64,000 nt of DNA, from contig JAZRUW010000027.1 in assembly GCA_045652745.1 (NCBI GenBank), forward strand, positions 353 through 64,352, given 5' to 3'. The notes under the pieces are model-generated. The model was given only the letters and a program-made list of their open reading frames with translations. It made no database searches and was not told the origin of the DNA. Source of the DNA: Clostridia bacterium (GTDB lineage: Bacteria > Bacillota > Clostridia > UBA1381 > UMGS1253). Within the stretch, counting starts at the first letter, position 1, and each line of letters opens with the position of its first letter. The translations under genes were made by a program, and so were the position numbers. Shown in pieces: positions 23,684-39,691 of this stretch.

Positions 23684-23744
23684 ACAGACCATTCCTTTCA
23701 TATATTTGTAAAAACAATATGCAGATATATGGGAGGATTTTTTT

Positions 23745-24020
23745 ATGCCGATGGAGGAAAAGAGAATGCAGCACAGTATGCAACTCGAGGATAGAGCACG
23801 TCTGATTTTGACGGGCGTGGAAGATGTGGAAAGTTTTGATGAGCAGGGGATGGTGATTGAAACTGCGCTGGGTGCGGTCTTGGTCGGCGGAAGCGAGCTT
23901 CGTATACAGCGCTATAATGTCGACAGCGGAGAGCTGTGTATTGAAGGCAATATTGATGAATTGGTCTATCAGGATGCAACCGGTACAAAAAAAGGCCTTC
24001 TCGGCCGTCTGTTCGGGTAA
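23745..24020 (+). CDS. yabP: Sporulation protein YabP
   Basis: The protein contains HSMQLEDRARLILTGVEDVESFDEQGMVIETALGAVLVGGSELRI and sits in the conserved position. Confidence 0.85.
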   Translation: MPMEEKRMQHSMQLEDRARLILTGVEDVESFDEQGMVIETALGAVLVGGSELRIQRYNVDSGELCIEGNIDELVYQDATGTKKGLLGRLFG

Positions 24021-35716: not shown

Positions 35717-35792
35717 ATCTATTTGAAATTGAAAATCTGGAAGGGAATGGCAATTGCCGTTCCCTTTTGGTTTATAAATTTTGTATTTTTGC

Positions 35793-35821
35793 TTGACAAT
35801 ATGGGTAAAATATGCTAAACT
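35793..35821 (+). promoter_or_regulatory. Promoter of the tRNA-Ser pair
   Basis: TTGACA (35793-35798), a 17-nt spacer, then TAAACT (35816-35821). Confidence 0.55.
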
Positions 35822-35864
35822 AGTGTCTGCGGTTGCGAAGAAGAGCGCCTGACTGCGTTGATCT

Positions 35865-35951
35865 GGAGAGGTGTCCGAGTGGTTTAAGGAGCTGGTCTTG
35901 AAAACCAGTGATACGCAAGTACCAAGAGTTCGAATCTCTTCCTCTCCGCCA
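35865..35951 (+). tRNA. tRNA-Ser (anticodon UGA)
   Basis: The sequence is GGAGAGGTGTCCGAGTGGTTTAAGGAGCTGGTCTTGAAAACCAGTGATACGCAAGTACCAAGAGTTCGAATCTCTTCCTCTCCGCCA. The anticodon stem is CTGGT/ACCAG with loop CTTGAAA. It has a long variable arm and an encoded CCA. Confidence 0.9.
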
Positions 35952-35978
35952 CAATTTTATACCATTTTAATTCGGTTT

Positions 35979-36070
35979 GGAGAAGTACTCAAGTAGGCCG
36001 AAGAGGCGCCCCTGCTAAGGGTGTAGGTCGGGAAACCGGCGCGAGGGTTCGAATCCCTCCTTCTCCGCCA
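35979..36070 (+). tRNA. tRNA-Ser (anticodon GCU); its 3' end is the probable prophage attachment site
   Basis: The sequence is GGAGAAGTACTCAAGTAGGCCGAAGAGGCGCCCCTGCTAAGGGTGTAGGTCGGGAAACCGGCGCGAGGGTTCGAATCCCTCCTTCTCCGCCA. The anticodon loop is CTGCTAA. It has a long variable arm and an encoded CCA. Confidence 0.9.
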
Positions 36071-36079
36071 AAACAAGAA

Positions 36080-36120
36080 ACCGCATAACAACGGGTTTTT
36101 CCCAGTGTTATGCGGTTTTT
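36080..36120 (+). terminator. Terminator of the tRNA operon, supplied by the prophage end
   Basis: The 11-bp stem is accgcataaca / tgttatgcggt and is followed by ttttt. Confidence 0.65.
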
Positions 36121-36197
36121 CTTTGTTTTGATTGTGCGACATATCGCGACATATCGTGCGCATTTTGAATATATTTCTTTGTCAAATCTTTGTCAGC

Positions 36198-37244
36198 TTA
36201 TGCGCTTATTTTGTTTTCGGCGATAAAGGTCAGCCATTTTTCTTTTGAGCTGCCCTGCCGCAGTTCGGAAAGGTGTGTGTAGATTTCAAGTGTGGTTTCG
36301 ACATCGGCGTGACCTAACCATCTTTGTGCGGTTTTTACATCCACCCCGGCGTCATAGAGCATCGTAGCATATGCATGGCGCAGCTGATGCGGTGTTGCCT
36401 CGATGCCAAGCTCTGCTTTGTATTTATCCCACATACGAGTGAATTGCGAATCTCGATATAACTCGCCATATTGATTTGCGAAAATGTATTTGCCTCTCAT
36501 TCGAGGCTTTAACAAGTCAAATATAAAATCCGGTAGCGGGATTTCGCGGTTGCCGGCTTCCGTTTTCGGCGAATATTTGATCTGTGGCACTTGGCCTATC
36601 CATTCCACTGTCTTTGATATGCGCACCGACTTGTCCTTTTTGTTGAAATCGGAAGGCTCAAGCGCAAGCGCCTCACCTTTTCGACAGCCGGAGTACAGAT
36701 AGAACAGCGCAAGCACAGCGGCATCCGTATCCTTTTTTGTTTTGATTTTTTCAATATCTATATCTTTTGGTGGTTCTCTTTTTTTCTGCGGCAGGTCCTT
36801 TGGGAGTTTAGCATCTTTGCATGGGTTGCTTTTCAGCATTCTGTGCTCCACAGCGTAATCAAATATCAGACTACATACGAGCTTGCGTGATTGTACGGTC
36901 TTTTTCGCGTAGCCTTGTTTTTTGAGTGCTTTTAAAAATGCGCTGATGTCAGCAGTCTCGATTTCCTTGATGTGCATATCCCCAAAAGCCTTTACTACTT
37001 GTGCCTTCGCCGGGCGGTATTGCTTCAAGGTGTTGTTCTGCAGGGATGGCCAGTGCTCTTTTTCCCAATTGTCGGCTACAATTTTAAACAACTCGCCGCG
37101 TTCCAATTTCTCTTTGTATTCTATCATTTGCCGGGCGATGTCACGCTCTGCAGCCTTCTCGGTTTTGGCACGGCTGTAAAAGTGTACCGGCTCACCGTTT
37201 ATCACGATGGTTTTCGGCCATCTGCCGTCTGGTCTTTGTTTCAT
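36198..37244 (-). CDS. int: Tyrosine integrase
   Basis: The C-terminal catalytic region is ..GCRKGEALAL..HQLRHAYATMLYDAGVDVKTAQRWLGHADVETTLEIYTH, which gives the R..HxxR..H..Y pattern. It has an N-terminal SAM-like domain and lies next to a tRNA. Confidence 0.9.
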   Translation of the reverse strand: MKQRPDGRWPKTIVINGEPVHFYSRAKTEKAAERDIARQMIEYKEKLERGELFKIVADNWEKEHWPSLQNNTLKQYRPAKAQVVKAFGDMHIKEIETADISAFLKALKKQGYAKKTVQSRKLVCSLIFDYAVEHRMLKSNPCKDAKLPKDLPQKKREPPKDIDIEKIKTKKDTDAAVLALFYLYSGCRKGEALALEPSDFNKKDKSVRISKTVEWIGQVPQIKYSPKTEAGNREIPLPDFIFDLLKPRMRGKYIFANQYGELYRDSQFTRMWDKYKAELGIEATPHQLRHAYATMLYDAGVDVKTAQRWLGHADVETTLEIYTHLSELRQGSSKEKWLTFIAENKISA

Positions 37245-37276
37245 TAAAATAACACATTCCCTTCTGAAAATTAGTA

Positions 37277-37394
37277 TTGCAAATAAGAAGGAAATGCGCT
37301 ATAATGAGTGCGAAGCCATTTTCCTTCAATTTGGTGTTGTTGGTTTTGGTTTTCGTCATAACCCTTGGCATTGCCGTGCCGGGGGTTATTTTTT
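37277..37394 (+). ncRNA. Candidate small antisense RNA unit (promoter plus a terminator that works on the + strand only) in the gap between the zinc-ribbon gene and int
   Basis: TTGCAA (37277-37282), a 17-nt spacer, then a perfect TATAAT (37300-37305). A 13-bp hairpin at 37358-37389 (ataacccttggca / tgccgggggttat, 6-nt loop) is followed by TTTTT on the + strand only. The predicted transcript is about 83 nt. Confidence 0.4.
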
Positions 37395-37396
37395 AA

Positions 37397-37942
37397 TTAT
37401 CCTAAAAATCCTGCAAAAAAGCCGATAAAGATACATACAAGTATAAGTATGAGAATGGCAATGAACGGACCCACTACACAACCGATAGCCGTTTGGCTGA
37501 CTTTTTCCGCCGGTGTAGGTTCGCCGCAATGCGGGCAACGCTTTGCGCGTGGGGATATGGCAGCACCGCACACTTTACAAGTGATTGTACCTGGTCTCAA
37601 ATTTACAGAGGAAATAGAGTTTGCATCAGCCTTTGATGTGGAGTGAGCCTGCACTTTTTCCTCCGGCAACTTTTCGCCGTTTGCATATATATCCATTTTG
37701 CTAGTTTTTGCATTGAATTTTGTCATGAAATTTGCATTTTCGCCATTAATGTTTACTTTTATAATCGTTTCTTTTTTCCACATCGAAATTGAAATAATGT
37801 GCTCTCCATTTTCAACTTCACACTCGAACTGCTTGCCGTTGGCAATCTTACCTACTATGCTATCGTCTATTTTAACTACGCAGCTGACAGCGCTACCGCC
37901 CATGACGCTTTTTCTATTGATAACAATCTTTGTTTTCTCCAT
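37397..37942 (-). CDS. Zinc-ribbon membrane protein co-transcribed with the repressor (candidate superinfection-exclusion function)
   Basis: The start lies 13 nt after the repressor stop, with RBS aagggag. The protein has CKVCGAAISPRAKRCPHCG (a CxxC..CxxC ribbon) and a C-terminal TM helix (VVGPFIAILILILVCIFIGFFAGFL). Confidence 0.6.
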   Translation of the reverse strand: MEKTKIVINRKSVMGGSAVSCVVKIDDSIVGKIANGKQFECEVENGEHIISISMWKKETIIKVNINGENANFMTKFNAKTSKMDIYANGEKLPEEKVQAHSTSKADANSISSVNLRPGTITCKVCGAAISPRAKRCPHCGEPTPAEKVSQTAIGCVVGPFIAILILILVCIFIGFFAGFLG

Positions 37943-37955
37943 TTTTAAAGCTCCC

Positions 37956-38636
37956 TTATATTTCTCTTATCAGCAGCACCGGCATGCCGAGTACACGGCA
38001 ATGCTCCAGTGCTTCACCTTCAATTGTTTTTGGCATATACTCCGGATTTATCGGGAGCATGCGCAACCAGTCCTCGCCCTGGACATATTCTACCTTTTTG
38101 AGCGTTACATTTTCATCGTCGTACAGTATTGCGCCGATTTCGCCGGAACGGTTTAATGTCGACTGTCTTAATATAAGTACTTTGTCCCCGTCCATATAGA
38201 GCGGATACATACTGTCGCCGACTACTTTTAATACGAAGAAATCTGATGCCTTTCGCCCACGTAGATAGGATGTTGGTACATCCACCGTATCGCCGGACCA
38301 ATCCTCAACGGCAAGTTTGTCATATCCTGCAGCCACATCTCCGATAACCGGGAATGTCACGACATCCTCTGCGATGCGAGGATGCTGCAGAATAATGCTC
38401 GACCGTGAATTACTTGATGTAGATTTTCCGTTCAAATAATCTATAGACACATTAAACAAATCCGCAATACAGGTAATTGTATATATTTCCGGTGTTTGAA
38501 ACCCAGTTTCCCATTTGCTTATCATCACGCGATCGGTTTTTAGATTGTACTGTTCGCGCAATCGTTTTGCCATTTCTTCTTGTGTTAATTTGTGAGCCTT
38601 GCGAAGTTCTCGAAGGCGAGTTTGTAAATTACTCAT
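37956..38636 (-). CDS. CI/LexA-type phage repressor (XRE HTH plus S24 peptidase)
   Basis: The HTH is LRELRKAHKLTQEEMAKRL..ISKWETG. The Ala-Gly cleavage site is GDVAAGYD. The catalytic residues are the Ser in VVGDSMYP and the Lys in VTLKKV. The start ATG at 38636 follows ggagggga. Confidence 0.9.
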   Translation of the reverse strand: MSNLQTRLRELRKAHKLTQEEMAKRLREQYNLKTDRVMISKWETGFQTPEIYTITCIADLFNVSIDYLNGKSTSSNSRSSIILQHPRIAEDVVTFPVIGDVAAGYDKLAVEDWSGDTVDVPTSYLRGRKASDFFVLKVVGDSMYPLYMDGDKVLILRQSTLNRSGEIGAILYDDENVTLKKVEYVQGEDWLRMLPINPEYMPKTIEGEALEHCRVLGMPVLLIREI

Positions 38637-38657: not shown

Positions 38658-38766
38658 ATAATAACATAAATGTGTCGAAAGTGCAACAGTTTTTTGAGAT
38701 TTTTTTAAAAAAAGTGTTGACAAAGGAACGAAACGGTGCTAACATAAATGTGTCGACAACGAAACA
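38658..38766. promoter_or_regulatory. Divergent lysis/lysogeny switch: repressor promoter, cro-side promoter and operators O1/O2
   Basis: On the minus strand, TTGCAC (38686-38681), 17 nt, then TATTAT (38663-38658). On the plus strand, TTGACA (38717-38722), 17 nt, then TAACAT (38740-38745). The operator-like 26-mers are aacataaatgtgtcgaaagtgcaaca (38663-38688) and aacataaatgtgtcgacaacgaaaca (38741-38766). The core includes the palindrome TGTCGACA. Confidence 0.7.
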
Positions 38767-38781
38767 ATGGAGGTGATATGG

Positions 38782-38997
38782 ATGGGAAAACGCGAAATTA
38801 AGCACCCGGAATATTATGCAATTCCAGGGTATATGATTTTAGCAAAAAAGAGCGATGAAGACTGTGCGGATTTTCTTGATATGAGCGTTAGAACTTATAA
38901 AGAAAAGATTAAAGGTTTTTCGGATTTTTCTGCTGAACAAGGAAGAAAATTAGCGGAGTTTTTGGGAGTTACGCAGAGTGAAATTTTTTTAATTTAA
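38782..38997 (+). CDS. Cro-like small HTH regulator
   Basis: It is divergent from the repressor. The RBS is ggaggtg. The HTH-like segment is ..DCADFLDMSVRTYKEKIKG..LAEFLGV. Confidence 0.65.
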   Translation: MGKREIKHPEYYAIPGYMILAKKSDEDCADFLDMSVRTYKEKIKGFSDFSAEQGRKLAEFLGVTQSEIFLI

Positions 38998-39017
38998 AAT
39001 GTGTCGACAACGAAACA
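38997..39017. promoter_or_regulatory. Third copy of the operator 21-mer (O3), downstream of the cro-like gene
   Basis: The sequence aaatgtgtcgacaacgaaaca is identical to 38746-38766. Confidence 0.6.
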
Positions 39018-39432: not shown

Positions 39433-39496
39433 TACAATCACCTCAGCGTGATTATACCACAACAGAAAAATTAAGGCAAGAAAGAAGGTGACAAAC

Positions 39497-39691
39497 ATGC
39501 CTTTGGAAAAAGAGGGATATAGAGAAAATCTTGAGCGCATCAAAGAGCGTTTTCCTACCAAAGAAATTTTGAGACCGGGTGAAGTCGCAGATTTTTTAGG
39601 TGTATCAAAACGGACGGTGCAGAGGATGTTCAATTTTAATCAATTTGGTCATATCTCTGTTGCCAGCCTGGCGCGGCAGATATGTAGTTAG
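39497..39691 (+). CDS. Small HTH DNA-binding protein (excisionase-family-like)
   Basis: ..LRPGEVADFLGVSKRTVQRMF.. matches the MerR/Xis-type HTH pattern. Confidence 0.5.
   Translation: MPLEKEGYRENLERIKERFPTKEILRPGEVADFLGVSKRTVQRMFNFNQFGHISVASLARQICS

What the first reader, a model, noticed from the sequence alone, without database searches (positions are those of the whole stretch)
37277..37396. Promoter-plus-terminator unit of about 83 nt, antisense in the gap between the zinc-ribbon gene and int (candidate sRNA or 30-aa hydrophobic peptide)
Seen in sequence: on the + strand, opposite to int, the zinc-ribbon gene and the repressor, there is TTGCAA, 17 nt, then a perfect TATAAT (37277-37305). 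About 50 nt further on is a 13-bp hairpin (37358-37389) followed by five T residues. On the minus strand the same hairpin would have A-C mismatches and no U-tract. It is therefore a good terminator only for a + strand transcript and a poor one for the repressor operon. The same stretch holds a 30-codon ORF (37304-37396, MSAKPFSFNLVLLVLVFVITLGIAVPGVIF). Its ATG lies inside the -10 hexamer, so a transcript from this promoter would not include it. Inference: this is a small RNA fully complementary to any read-through from the repressor operon into the int leader. That would be a possible retro-regulator of integrase expression, comparable in logic to lambda sib/OOP or P22 sar. If the region is transcribed from further upstream, the hydrophobic peptide would instead resemble a type I toxin.
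Basis: partly seen in the sequence, partly recalled or inferred. Interest (0 to 1): 0.55.

Follow-up and report, generated by a model that had tools for sequence, protein, structure and literature searches.

The report
Antisense small RNA upstream of integrase
A prophage carries a probable 83-base non-coding RNA gene, with its own promoter and terminator, facing against the repressor-to-integrase operon just upstream of the integrase gene; the same layout recurs in unrelated gut-bacterial phages and probably keeps integrase production low once lysogeny is established.

Summary
TTGCAA-17-TATAAT lies at 37277-37305 (+). A 14-bp hairpin with T5 lies at 37358-37394 (+) and is a good terminator on that strand only.

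A sister prophage (L084) keeps the whole 152-nt gap at 95.4% identity. Its int third codon positions are 28% diverged. Homology stops exactly at the end of the T-tract, where a different cargo gene begins.

The 30-codon ORF is not supported. Its stop codon is lost in L084, no conserved promoter precedes it, and it has no other homologue.

On the int strand, the int Shine-Dalgarno sequence sits in a 17-bp hairpin followed by a U-tract. An upstream mimic of the Shine-Dalgarno arm, lying inside the part complementary to the small RNA, can capture the anti-Shine-Dalgarno arm instead.

Among 27 families of int relatives, 8 have a strong terminator facing away from int within 300 nt upstream, and none has one facing int. 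Seven of the eight also have a promoter 34-52 nt before the hairpin. Faecalibacterium phage Roos has the same unit.

Small RNAs at this position were detected experimentally in Streptococcus pyogenes prophages, with function unknown.

Best reading: a cis-antisense RNA that lowers int expression, most likely through a structural switch in the int leader. Expression is untested here.

The parts
37277..37282 (+). -35 hexamer TTGCAA of the antisense promoter; it lies in the loop of the int leader hairpin
   Evidence: Identical in L084. The surrounding motif ATTTGCAATAC is kept in L005 although both stem arms differ there.
37300..37305 (+). -10 hexamer TATAAT (perfect), at the outer end of the anti-Shine-Dalgarno arm, which it overlaps by 3 nt (37300-37302)
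   Evidence: Identical in L084.
37312..37394 (+). Predicted non-coding RNA of about 83 nt: a weak 5' stem-loop, a linker and a terminator hairpin. The start site is inferred as 7 nt after the -10 hexamer.
   Evidence: Fold -33.2 kcal/mol, z = -5.3. There are 3 differences from L084 over the whole unit 37277-37395 (119 nt). Two of them fall in the apical loop of the 5' stem-loop.
37358..37394 (+). Intrinsic terminator: a 14-bp stem with 3 G.U pairs, a 4-nt loop and U5. It works as a terminator on the + strand only.
   Evidence: 100% identical in L084. Homology to L084 ends at 37395.
37314..37327 (-). Element 1: an upstream mimic of the Shine-Dalgarno arm (GAAGGAAAAUGGCU) in the int leader. It can pair with the anti-Shine-Dalgarno arm and lies inside the stretch complementary to the small RNA.
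   Evidence: The alternative hairpin is -12.6 kcal/mol in the nascent leader, in both the window and L084. Duplex energy against shuffles gives p = 0.02-0.05.
37286..37302 (-). Element 2: the anti-Shine-Dalgarno arm (5' arm of the int leader hairpin)
37249..37265 (-). Element 3: the 3' arm of the int leader hairpin, containing the int Shine-Dalgarno sequence AGAAGGG (37259-37265)
   Evidence: The 17-bp hairpin is -20.0 kcal/mol on the - strand and -10.4 on the + strand. The L084 change at 37258 keeps the pair as U.G. L005 has a different stem sequence with the same pairing.
37245..37252 (-). U-rich tract (UUAUUUUA) between the leader hairpin and the int AUG. Together with the hairpin it resembles an attenuator.
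   Evidence: The tract is U-richer in L084 (UUAUUUUU) and in L005 (U8). A similar tract is seen in L019, L023, L048 and Roos.
36198..37244 (-). Tyrosine integrase gene (348 aa), the likely target of regulation
   Evidence: Pfam Phage_integrase, E = 1.8e-24. Homologues.
37397..37942 (-). Cargo gene of the lysogeny operon (zinc ribbon, weak DUF2846 match, hydrophobic C-terminal stretch). Its stop codon lies 2 nt beyond the end of the small RNA's T-tract.
   Evidence: Replaced by an unrelated 265-aa gene in L084.
37956..38636 (-). Repressor with helix-turn-helix and peptidase S24 domains, first gene of the operon
   Evidence: The 226-aa form is the one called in L084 and in its protein cluster.
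36077..36119 (.). Bidirectional terminator between tRNA-Ser(GCU) and the 3' end of int. It stops host tRNA read-through and ends the int transcript.
   Evidence: -24.3 kcal/mol on + and -22.0 on -. 100% identical in L084.
37304..37396 (+). 30-codon hydrophobic ORF, judged non-coding
   Evidence: Stop codon lost in L084, giving 52 aa that run past the terminator. No homologue except L084. No Pfam hit.

Best explanation
The segment is a small non-coding RNA gene of about 83 nt. It has a sigma-A-type promoter (37277-37305) and a one-directional intrinsic terminator (37358-37394). It is transcribed on the + strand, away from int and against the repressor-cargo-int operon.

Its RNA is fully complementary to the intercistronic leader that precedes int, and it acts as a negative regulator of int.

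The most likely mode of action is a three-element switch in the int leader:
1. In the nascent operon transcript, an upstream mimic of the Shine-Dalgarno arm (element 1, 37314-37327) pairs with the anti-Shine-Dalgarno arm (element 2, 37286-37302). This leaves the int ribosome-binding site free.
2. When the antisense RNA covers element 1, element 2 instead pairs with the arm that holds the Shine-Dalgarno sequence (element 3, 37249-37265).
3. This forms a 17-bp hairpin followed by a U-tract just before the AUG. The hairpin blocks int translation and may also stop transcription.

The expected result is a burst of Int after infection, before the antisense RNA has accumulated, and little Int in the established lysogen while repressor and cargo continue to be made.

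Shown here: the sequence elements, their strand asymmetry, their conservation and their recurrence in other phages.
Inferred: transcription of the unit, pairing of the two RNAs, and the effect on int.
For: 1. The promoter is a 10/12 match with a perfect -10 (p about 0.02 per strand in shuffles of the gap). The terminator ranks sixth in stability in the 64-kb window.

2. The two hairpins have opposite strand preferences. The terminator is -20.3 kcal/mol on + and -13.6 on -, with a T-tract on + only. The leader hairpin is -20.0 on - and -10.4 on +.

3. Sister prophage L084 keeps the gap at 95.4% identity. The int CDS is 88.1% identical with 28% of third positions changed (Fisher p = 1.6e-10). 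Repressor third positions are 14% changed (p = 0.003). Non-coding 36120-36197 is 80.8% identical (p = 7e-4). The hexamers, the spacer, the hairpin with its G.U pairs and the T-tract are all identical.

4. Homology with L084 ends at 37395, the end of the T-tract, where a different cargo gene starts. The unit therefore belongs to the int-side module.

5. No other source of + strand transcripts remains. The tRNA genes are closed off by the terminator at 36077-36119. The only other + strand promoter-like site (36146, 9/12) is destroyed in L084.

6. In 27 families of int relatives, 8 have a terminator of -12 kcal/mol or better facing away from int within 300 nt upstream, and none has one facing int. 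About 2 are expected from the rest of the loci (Poisson p = 0.001). Seven of the eight have a promoter-like site 34-52 nt before the hairpin. Full-length folds gave two-hairpin RNAs of 71-83 nt in WIN, L020, L022, L048 and L056 and about 75 nt in L023. In all seven families with a predicted RNA the promoter is nested in an int Shine-Dalgarno / anti-Shine-Dalgarno hairpin.

7. Faecalibacterium phage Roos has TTGACA-17-TATAAT (12/12) and a 16-bp terminator at the same place, with the same two strand asymmetries.

8. Pairing of element 1 with element 2 beats shuffled controls in WIN (p = 0.02-0.05), L019 (0.015), L023 (0.006) and L020 (0.006). Combining WIN, L019 and L023 by Fisher's method gives p = 4e-4.

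9. Experimental precedent exists in S. pyogenes SF370. An 89-nt RNA with a predicted promoter and terminator lies between int3 and the next gene. Antisense RNAs lie against the 3' UTRs of SPy_0656 and SPy_1487; SPy_1487 is numbered next to int2 (SPy_1488). RNase III cuts with 2-nt overhangs were mapped in sense/antisense pairs upstream of int1 and int3 (PMC4829319; PMC5389636).
Against: - No expression data exist for this organism.
- There is only one close relative with the full gap, and identity between the two prophages is mosaic. The cro-like gene is 98.7% identical. The low divergence of the gap could therefore partly reflect recent exchange rather than selection.
- The -35 hexamer matches only 4 of 6 positions.
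- The element 1 pairing is only marginally significant in the window on its own. It is not significant in L048, L056 or Roos.
- The element 2:3 hairpin (-20 kcal/mol) is much more stable than the 1:2 pairing (-12.6). It also has a 20-nt loop, so it is a poor canonical terminator, and the switch would have to be kinetic.
- The closest int relatives with 50-57% identity (L076, L077, L079, L080) lack the unit. There int follows the upstream gene by 19-44 nt, or by a 172-nt gap without an antisense-facing terminator.
- The G.U count (22 against 3) is partly biased, because the hairpins were selected on the antisense strand.
Confidence: 0.55

Rival explanations
1. Only the int-strand leader is functional. 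The gap is a structured 5' leader that limits int translation or transcription on its own, through the hairpin that sequesters the Shine-Dalgarno sequence and the U-tract that follows. The + strand promoter and terminator are by-products of that structure and make no functional RNA.
For: - The leader hairpin is strand-specific for the int strand (-20.0 against -10.4 kcal/mol).
- It keeps its pairing in L084, and in L005 with a different stem sequence.
- The whole 156-nt int-strand leader folds at -39.6 kcal/mol, z = -3.55.
- Conservation of the gap could be explained by this RNA alone.
Against: - The hairpin at 37358-37389 has its G.U pairs and its T-tract on the + strand, and a T-tract has no use in an int-strand RNA.
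- Promoter-like sites of 9-12 out of 12 recur at a constant 34-52 nt from antisense-facing terminators in unrelated leader sequences. Two of them are 12/12 matches, in L023 and Roos.
- RNAs at this position were detected in S. pyogenes (PMC4829319).
Confidence: 0.15
2. The + strand terminator is real but serves only as an insulator. It stops stray antisense transcription coming across int, from the host flank or from late genes across attP in the circular phage, before it can run antisense into the cargo and repressor genes. The promoter match is a coincidence.
For: - Antisense-facing terminators recur upstream of int in 8 of 27 families.
- One of those families (L024/L034) has no promoter-like site.
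- The terminator abuts the cargo stop codon in every case examined.
Against: - A strong bidirectional terminator already closes the att side at 36077-36119.
- No conserved + strand promoter exists between it and 37277.
- Seven of the eight families have a promoter-like site at a fixed distance from the hairpin. About 0.1 such site per 110-nt stretch is expected by chance.
Confidence: 0.12
3. The stretch encodes a 30-39-aa hydrophobic membrane peptide, such as a type I toxin or a small accessory protein, translated from a longer + strand transcript.
For: - The ORF is open and hydrophobic.
- A Shine-Dalgarno-like AGAAGGA lies 11 nt before the ATG.
- A gene caller predicted the corresponding ORF in L084.
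Against: - The -10 hexamer overlaps the ATG.
- The only upstream promoter-like site (ATAACA-17-TAGTAT, 8/12) loses its essential A in L084.
- The stop codon is lost in L084, so that ORF runs 66 nt beyond the conserved terminator.
- There are 2 non-synonymous changes (one puts Glu into the hydrophobic stretch) against 1 synonymous change.
- An exhaustive search of 1.84 billion representative proteins and a search of 5.8 billion clusters found only the L084 copy.
- There is no Pfam hit.
- The Shine-Dalgarno-like motif is simply the complement of the anti-Shine-Dalgarno arm.
Confidence: 0.04
4. The features are chance look-alikes in an AT-rich intergenic region with no function on either strand.
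For: Promoter-like sites are common. 16 were found against 10.1 expected in the 5-kb region.
Against: - The joint occurrence of the promoter and the terminator.
- Conservation above that of flanking synonymous sites.
- The exact module boundary at the T-tract.
- Recurrence of the layout in other phages.
Confidence: 0.03

Closest known systems
Small RNAs next to the integrase genes of Streptococcus pyogenes SF370 prophages: Spy_sRNA779816 (int3), Spy_sRNA531081 (370.1; antisense to the 3' UTR of SPy_0656) and Spy_sRNA1221370 (370.2; antisense to the 3' UTR of SPy_1487, numbered next to int2 = SPy_1488) (PMC4829319; RNase III data in PMC5389636)
   Same: - A short RNA (89 nt for Spy_sRNA779816; under 150 nt for the others), with a predicted promoter and terminator for Spy_sRNA779816.
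- Spy_sRNA779816 lies between int3 and the neighbouring phage gene; the other two lie antisense to the 3' UTR of a phage gene.
- RNase III cuts with 2-nt overhangs in sense/antisense pairs upstream of int1 and int3.
- A Firmicutes prophage host.
   Different: - The sequences could not be compared here, because the SF370 sequence and the paper's supplements were not available.
- Their function is unknown.
- No leader switch has been described for them.
- The host is a Clostridia-like gut bacterium rather than a Streptococcus.
Antisense-RNA-driven transcription attenuation of plasmid replication genes (pT181 RNAI/RNAII with repC; pIP501 RNAIII with repR). From my own knowledge, not tested here.
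   Same: - A short antisense RNA is made from a promoter inside the leader.
- It is complementary to the 5' part of the leader, which holds an element that otherwise prevents a downstream hairpin from forming.
- When the antisense RNA binds, a hairpin followed by a U-tract forms just before the start codon.
   Different: - The target is a phage integrase within an operon, not a plasmid replication gene.
- The leader is intercistronic.
- The off-state hairpin also sequesters the Shine-Dalgarno sequence.
- It has a 20-nt loop, so translational block may matter more than termination.
- There is no experimental support.
Phage P22 sar RNA and phage lambda OOP RNA (from my own knowledge)
   Same: - 70-80-nt RNAs with their own promoter and intrinsic terminator.
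- They are antisense to part of an operon in the immunity or lysogeny region.
- sar targets an intercistronic region.
- OOP acts with RNase III.
   Different: - sar covers the ribosome-binding site of its target, ant. Here the RNA stops 47 nt short of the int Shine-Dalgarno sequence.
- The targets are ant and cII, not int.
- There is no sequence or Rfam relationship.
Lambda sib retroregulation of int (from my own knowledge; cited in PMC5389636)
   Same: It is an RNA-level negative control of int that depends on which transcript carries the site.
   Different: - sib lies downstream of int, beyond att.
- It is an RNase III hairpin within the mRNA itself, and no separate antisense RNA is involved.
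- Here the element lies upstream of int and has its own promoter.
Type I toxin-antitoxin systems of Firmicutes prophages (from my own knowledge)
   Same: - A small hydrophobic ORF.
- A Shine-Dalgarno-like motif that can be sequestered.
- Overlapping transcription from both strands.
   Different: - The ORF is not conserved at its stop codon.
- It has no promoter.
- It has no charged tail.
- It has no homologues.

Membership tests
Cis-encoded antisense small RNA of a prophage lysogeny module | Its own promoter on the strand opposite the target operon | tested here: met
   TTGCAA-17-TATAAT, a 10/12 match, p about 0.02 per strand in shuffles. Identical in L084. This is a sequence-level test only.
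Cis-encoded antisense small RNA of a prophage lysogeny module | An intrinsic terminator that gives a short, discrete RNA | tested here: met
   A 14-bp stem with U5, -20.3 kcal/mol, + strand only, 52 nt after the -10 hexamer.
Cis-encoded antisense small RNA of a prophage lysogeny module | A target transcript crosses the region on the other strand | tested here: inconclusive
   - No promoter of at least 9/12 on the int strand and no int-strand terminator in the gap.
- Relatives have int 19-44 nt after the upstream gene.
- All examined loci have repressor, accessory genes and int on one strand.
- Co-transcription is inferred, not shown.
Cis-encoded antisense small RNA of a prophage lysogeny module | The RNA is detected in cells | not testable with these tools
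   No transcriptome is available. The only precedents are in S. pyogenes (PMC4829319).
Cis-encoded antisense small RNA of a prophage lysogeny module | Conservation of promoter and terminator in related phages | tested here: met
   Identical in L084, with the gap at 95.4% against 88.1% for the int CDS. The architecture recurs in 7 other families and in phage Roos.
Antisense-RNA-driven attenuation (pT181 / pIP501 type) | The leader has two mutually exclusive structures that share one arm | tested here: met
   Pairing 1:2 is -12.6 kcal/mol in the nascent leader. Pairing 2:3 is -20.0. Against shuffles p = 0.02-0.05 in the window; combined p = 4e-4 for three families.
Antisense-RNA-driven attenuation (pT181 / pIP501 type) | The antisense RNA is complementary to the upstream element, not to the terminator arms | tested here: met
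   The predicted RNA covers 37312-37394. Element 1 is 37314-37327. Elements 2 and 3 lie outside the RNA.
Antisense-RNA-driven attenuation (pT181 / pIP501 type) | The off-state hairpin is an efficient intrinsic terminator just before the start codon | tested here: inconclusive
   A 17-bp stem is followed by UUAUUUUA (U5 in L084, U8 in L005). The loop is 20 nt, which is atypical for a terminator.
Antisense-RNA-driven attenuation (pT181 / pIP501 type) | Termination or translation changes when the antisense RNA is present | not testable with these tools
   This needs in vitro transcription or reporter assays.
Type I toxin-antitoxin | A conserved small ORF with an intact frame and stop codon | tested here: not met
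   The stop codon is lost in L084 (52 aa, running past the terminator). 2 non-synonymous changes against 1 synonymous.
Type I toxin-antitoxin | A promoter upstream of the toxin ORF | tested here: not met
   The -10 hexamer overlaps the ATG. The weak upstream site is not conserved.
Type I toxin-antitoxin | Homology to a known toxin family | tested here: not met
   No Pfam hit. Only the L084 copy was found among 1.84 billion representatives and 5.8 billion clusters.
Lambda sib-type retroregulation | The site lies downstream of int, beyond att, and is part of the int transcript | tested here: not met
   The element lies upstream of int. Downstream of int there is only the bidirectional terminator at 36077-36119.
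Any curated Rfam family | A score at or above the family's gathering threshold | tested here: not met
   Only tRNAs were found in the window and in 8 related loci. The best weak hit in the gap was PyrR at 25 bits against a threshold of 54.

The most novel reading that the evidence does not exclude
Many Firmicutes prophages control integrase through one shared, undescribed device. A small RNA gene is nested in the int leader. Its promoter lies inside the hairpin that sequesters the int Shine-Dalgarno sequence, and its RNA covers an upstream element that otherwise keeps that hairpin open. Int would then be made in a burst on entry into a cell, before the small RNA accumulates, and shut off afterwards while repressor and cargo genes stay on. 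This would be the antisense-RNA attenuation logic known from plasmid replication control, reused for lysogeny. It would also give a function to the unexplained small RNAs seen next to int in S. pyogenes prophages.
Probability: 0.3. Interest if true: 0.7.

Novelty: new member of a known kind. Interest (0 to 1): 0.55.

Why it matters
How temperate phages of Gram-positive bacteria keep integrase low in a stable lysogen, when int is co-transcribed with the always-on repressor, is largely unknown.

This locus offers a compact, testable answer. It is an antisense RNA gene of about 83 nt embedded in the int leader, together with a three-element RNA switch.

The same layout is found in unrelated leader sequences from gut Clostridia phages, including the cultured Faecalibacterium phage Roos. 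That gives an experimental system.

It could also explain small RNAs already detected next to int in S. pyogenes prophages, whose role was left open.

A further practical point is that the homology break at the end of the terminator marks a cargo slot where accessory genes are exchanged. This helps in annotating accessory genes carried by prophages.

Tried and rejected
Searches for close relatives of the region that found nothing or nothing useful:
- DNA search of the region against 50,697 phage records found no match.
- The int protein against viral contigs found no close relative.
- The genome-contig scan found only relatives of 24-35% identity.
- Exact-pattern scans for the int 5' end, the hairpin and the promoter region in metagenome and viral contigs found nothing.
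- Look-ups of the window's own int and zinc-ribbon proteins were not on record.
- L085 holds only the 3' part of int.
- Homologues of the zinc-ribbon gene sit in other contexts, with an ordinary sense terminator.

Ideas tested and dropped:
- Host tRNA read-through as the source of + strand transcripts. Rejected because of the strong terminator at 36077-36119. The simple scan had missed it.
- A long antisense RNA starting from the 36146 site. Rejected because that site is not conserved in L084.
- Repressor operators in the gap. None are present; the three operator copies lie at 38662-39017 only.
- ATTTGCAATAC as a repeated binding motif. Its count in the window is not above chance.
- Trans targets of the small RNA at gene starts in the window. 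The best duplex is within the range of shuffled controls.
- Known RNA families. None matched.
- The peptide reading. Rejected for the reasons given under the rival explanations.

I did not build a covariance model of the units, because the families share architecture but not sequence.
Full report
**1. Observation**

The + strand carries TTGCAA (37277-37282), a 17-nt spacer and TATAAT (37300-37305). Fifty-two nt further on there is a hairpin at 37358-37389, followed by TTTTT. The stem has 14 pairs rather than 13, three of them G.U, and the loop is 4 nt.

On the + strand the hairpin is worth -20.3 kcal/mol. On the - strand the G.U pairs become A-C mismatches, the energy falls to -13.6 kcal/mol, and the following bases (GACGAAAA) contain no U. 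The 30-codon ORF at 37304-37396 exists, and its ATG overlaps the -10 hexamer.

A promoter match of at least 10/12 appears on one given strand in 2.1% of dinucleotide shuffles of the 152-nt gap, and in 0.7% with a perfect -10. The hairpin is the sixth most stable of 99 terminator-like structures found in the 64-kb window.

**2. Context**

Two tRNA-Ser genes lie on the + strand at 35865-36070. They are followed by a strong bidirectional terminator at 36077-36119. Three genes then lie on the - strand:
- int (36198-37244), a tyrosine recombinase;
- a 181-aa cargo protein (37397-37942) with a zinc ribbon, a weak DUF2846 match and a hydrophobic C-terminal stretch;
- a repressor with helix-turn-helix and peptidase S24 domains (37956-38636).

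Three operator copies flank the repressor/cro divergent region, and none lies in the int gap. The gap holds no promoter of at least 9/12 on the int strand. In int relatives of 50-57% identity, int follows the upstream gene by 19-44 nt. In every examined relative, the repressor, the accessory genes and int lie on one strand. int is therefore most likely the last gene of the repressor operon. This is an inference.

**3. A sister prophage**

An exhaustive protein search with the small ORF found one hit. It led to L084, a prophage at the same chromosomal site in another genome. Four findings came from comparing it with the window.

- Homology between the window and L084 runs from 35779 to 37395. 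It stops exactly at the end of the T-tract. It resumes at 37933, in front of the repressor.
- Between those points L084 carries an unrelated 265-aa gene. The terminator therefore belongs to the int-side module and is not the cargo gene's own terminator.
- The gap is more conserved than its surroundings:

| Region | Identity or divergence | Fisher p against the gap |
|---|---|---|
| Gap 37245-37396 | 95.4% identical (7 differences, one of them at the breakpoint) | - |
| int CDS | 88.1% identical; 98 of 125 differences at third codon positions, so 28% of third positions changed | 1.6e-10 |
| Repressor third codon positions | 14% changed | 0.003 |
| Non-coding 36120-36197 | 80.8% identical | 7e-4 |

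- Both promoter hexamers, the spacer, the hairpin with its three G.U pairs and the T-tract are identical in the two prophages.

There is a caveat. Identity between the two prophages is mosaic, and the cro-like gene is 98.7% identical. Recent exchange could therefore account for part of the gap's conservation.

**4. The peptide reading fails**

- In L084 the stop codon is lost, and the ORF runs 66 nt beyond the conserved terminator.
- The changes within the ORF are L10V, V11E and one synonymous change.
- The only promoter-like site upstream of the ATG (8/12) loses its essential A in L084.
- No homologue other than the L084 copy exists among 1.84 billion representative proteins or 5.8 billion clusters. 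Pfam gives no hit.
- The Shine-Dalgarno-like motif before the ATG is simply the complement of the anti-Shine-Dalgarno arm described in section 6.

**5. No other source of + strand transcripts**

tRNA read-through is stopped at 36077-36119. The only other + strand promoter-like site between there and the unit (36146, 9/12) is destroyed in L084. The promoter at 37277-37305 is therefore the natural partner of the terminator.

**6. The int-strand leader**

On the - strand, 37302-37286 pairs with 37249-37265. This is a 17-bp hairpin whose 3' arm contains the int Shine-Dalgarno sequence AGAAGGG. The hairpin is -20.0 kcal/mol on the - strand and -10.4 on the + strand. This is the reverse of the terminator's asymmetry.

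The L084 change at 37258 converts an A-U pair to G.U. L005, whose Int is 93% identical, has a different stem sequence (AUCUCUGCCUU / AAGGAGAGAU). It still pairs the Shine-Dalgarno sequence and keeps the loop motif ATTTGCAATAC.

A U-rich tract separates the hairpin from the AUG. It reads UUAUUUUA in the window, UUAUUUUU in L084 and U8 in L005. This also accounts for the unusually long 14-nt spacing between the Shine-Dalgarno sequence and the AUG.

The antisense promoter is nested in this hairpin, with the -35 hexamer in the loop and the -10 hexamer at the outer end of the 5' arm.

Before the 3' arm is transcribed, the nascent leader folds differently. An upstream mimic of the Shine-Dalgarno arm (37314-37327, GAAGGAAAAUGGCU) pairs with the anti-Shine-Dalgarno arm at -12.6 kcal/mol, in both the window and L084. 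This pairing beats shuffled controls at p = 0.02-0.05. The mimic lies entirely within the stretch complementary to the predicted RNA.

**7. Recurrence in other phages**

I grouped the regions upstream of int in the relatives into 27 families by sequence.

- Eight families have a terminator of -12 kcal/mol or better facing away from int within 300 nt upstream. None has a terminator facing int.
- The rest of the same loci give 0.25 antisense-facing hits per kb, so about 2 are expected (Poisson p = 0.001).
- In seven of the eight families, a promoter-like site lies 34-52 nt before the hairpin on the same strand. These include TTGCAA-17-TATAAT in L019 and a 12/12 site in L023.
- Full-length folds gave two-hairpin RNAs of 71-83 nt in WIN, L020, L022, L048 and L056, and about 75 nt in L023.
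- In all seven families with a predicted RNA, the promoter is nested in a hairpin that pairs the int Shine-Dalgarno sequence with an anti-Shine-Dalgarno arm. In the window, L019, L023 and, as far as its 48 nt show, L005, the -35 hexamer is in the loop. In L020, L022, L048 and L056 the -10 hexamer is in the loop.
- Faecalibacterium phage Roos, a cultured phage, has TTGACA-17-TATAAT and a 16-bp terminator between its metallopeptidase gene and int. It shows the same two strand asymmetries: the terminator is -23.9 against -12.7 kcal/mol, and the leader hairpin is -26.6 against -16.4.
- Across nine families the terminator stems hold 22 G.U pairs on the antisense strand and 3 on the int strand. This count is partly biased by how the hairpins were selected.
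- The upstream mimic is significant in L019 (p = 0.015), L023 (0.006) and L020 (0.006). It is not significant in L048, L056 or Roos. Fisher's combined p for the window, L019 and L023 is 4e-4.
- The closest int relatives (L076, L077, L079, L080) lack the unit, so it is not universal.

**8. Precedent in the literature**

In S. pyogenes SF370, an 89-nt RNA with a predicted promoter and terminator lies between int3 and the next gene, and it was confirmed by northern blot. Two further RNAs lie antisense to the 3' UTRs of SPy_0656 and SPy_1487; SPy_1487 is numbered next to int2 (SPy_1488) (PMC4829319). RNase III cuts with 2-nt overhangs were mapped in sense/antisense pairs in the UTRs upstream of int1 and int3. 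[quoted passage not shown] No Rfam family matches the unit here or in eight related loci.

**9. Proposed mechanism**

Shown here:
- the promoter and terminator elements and their strand specificity;
- their conservation and the module boundary at the T-tract;
- their recurrence in other phages;
- the two alternative leader pairings.

Inferred:
1. The + strand unit makes an RNA of about 83 nt.
2. The operon transcript crosses the gap.
3. The RNA pairs with the leader and covers the upstream mimic.
4. The anti-Shine-Dalgarno arm then closes on the Shine-Dalgarno sequence. This blocks translation and may terminate transcription at the U-tract.

Without the RNA, for example just after infection, the mimic holds the anti-Shine-Dalgarno arm and Int is made. 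Convergent transcription and RNase III cleavage of the duplex could add to the effect.

This works like antisense-RNA attenuation in pT181 and pIP501 (my own knowledge). Membership in that class cannot be claimed without functional tests.

**10. Rival explanations**

- A leader that works without any antisense RNA: 0.15.
- A terminator that only insulates the immunity genes from stray antisense transcription: 0.12.
- A small membrane peptide: 0.04.
- Chance: 0.03.

**11. Verdict**

The feature is real and very probably functional. It is best filed as a new member of a known but poorly understood kind, the small antisense RNAs next to prophage integrase genes.

What is new here is the recurrent nested architecture and a specific, testable switch model.

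- Interest: 0.55.
- Confidence in the core explanation: 0.55.
- Confidence that a + strand RNA is made at all: about 0.7.
- Confidence in the three-element switch specifically: about 0.3.

Noticed in passing
window 37397-37932; L084 5093-5878: There is a cargo slot between the repressor and the small-RNA terminator. The window holds a 181-aa protein with a zinc ribbon, a weak DUF2846 match and a hydrophobic C-terminal stretch. L084 holds an unrelated 265-aa protein that starts like a lipoprotein. The homology breaks lie at 37395/37396 and at 37933, so the gene is swapped almost exactly ORF for ORF.
   Followed up: partly
window 38662-38688, 38740-38766, 38991-39017: Three copies of a 27-nt operator-like repeat (AAATGTGTCGAC..GAAACA) flank the repressor/cro divergent promoters and the end of the cro-like gene.
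   Followed up: no
window 36077-36119: A strong bidirectional terminator (-24.3 and -22.0 kcal/mol) lies directly after tRNA-Ser(GCU) and before the 3' end of int. It is 100% identical in L084 although the neighbouring 36120-36197 is only 80.8% identical.
   Followed up: partly
window 36135-36196: Two pairs of short direct repeats lie between the terminator and the int stop codon. GCGACATATC occurs twice and is not conserved in L084. CTTTGTCA occurs twice and is conserved. They may be arm-type Int binding sites of attL.
   Followed up: no
window 38636 versus 38723: The longest repressor ORF (255 aa, TTG start) probably over-extends. The 226-aa form starting at ATG 38636 is the one called in L084 and held in the protein cluster, and one operator copy lies inside the extension.
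   Followed up: partly
L086 (Faecalibacterium phage Roos, PP479939.1) 2349-2481: A consensus 12/12 promoter and a 16-bp terminator face away from int, between metallopeptidase orf44 and integrase orf43. The -35 hexamer lies in the loop of the int Shine-Dalgarno hairpin. The GenBank record has no feature annotated there.
   Followed up: yes
L020, L022, L048, L056 (int leaders): These four otherwise dissimilar int leaders share the motif CACCTCCAA(A)TAT just upstream of int (exactly CACCTCCAATATA in L020 and L022). It combines the anti-Shine-Dalgarno arm with the complement of a -10-like TATATT (TATGAT in L056).
   Followed up: partly
window 37330-37357, - strand: A C- and A-rich, G-poor tract (ACGAAAACCAAAACCAACAACACC) follows the cargo stop codon on the int strand. 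It resembles a Rho loading site and could add polarity on int.
   Followed up: no
window 39488-39691; L084 7738-7932: A small + strand gene in the early region corresponds to an L084 gene with a weak HTH_17 (excisionase-type) hit. It is a candidate xis.
   Followed up: no
window 23693-23737 (+): A 45-nt stem-loop (18 pairs, -20 kcal/mol) with T7 lies just upstream of the + strand gene at 23745, in the host part of the window. It could be an attenuator or a leader.
   Followed up: no
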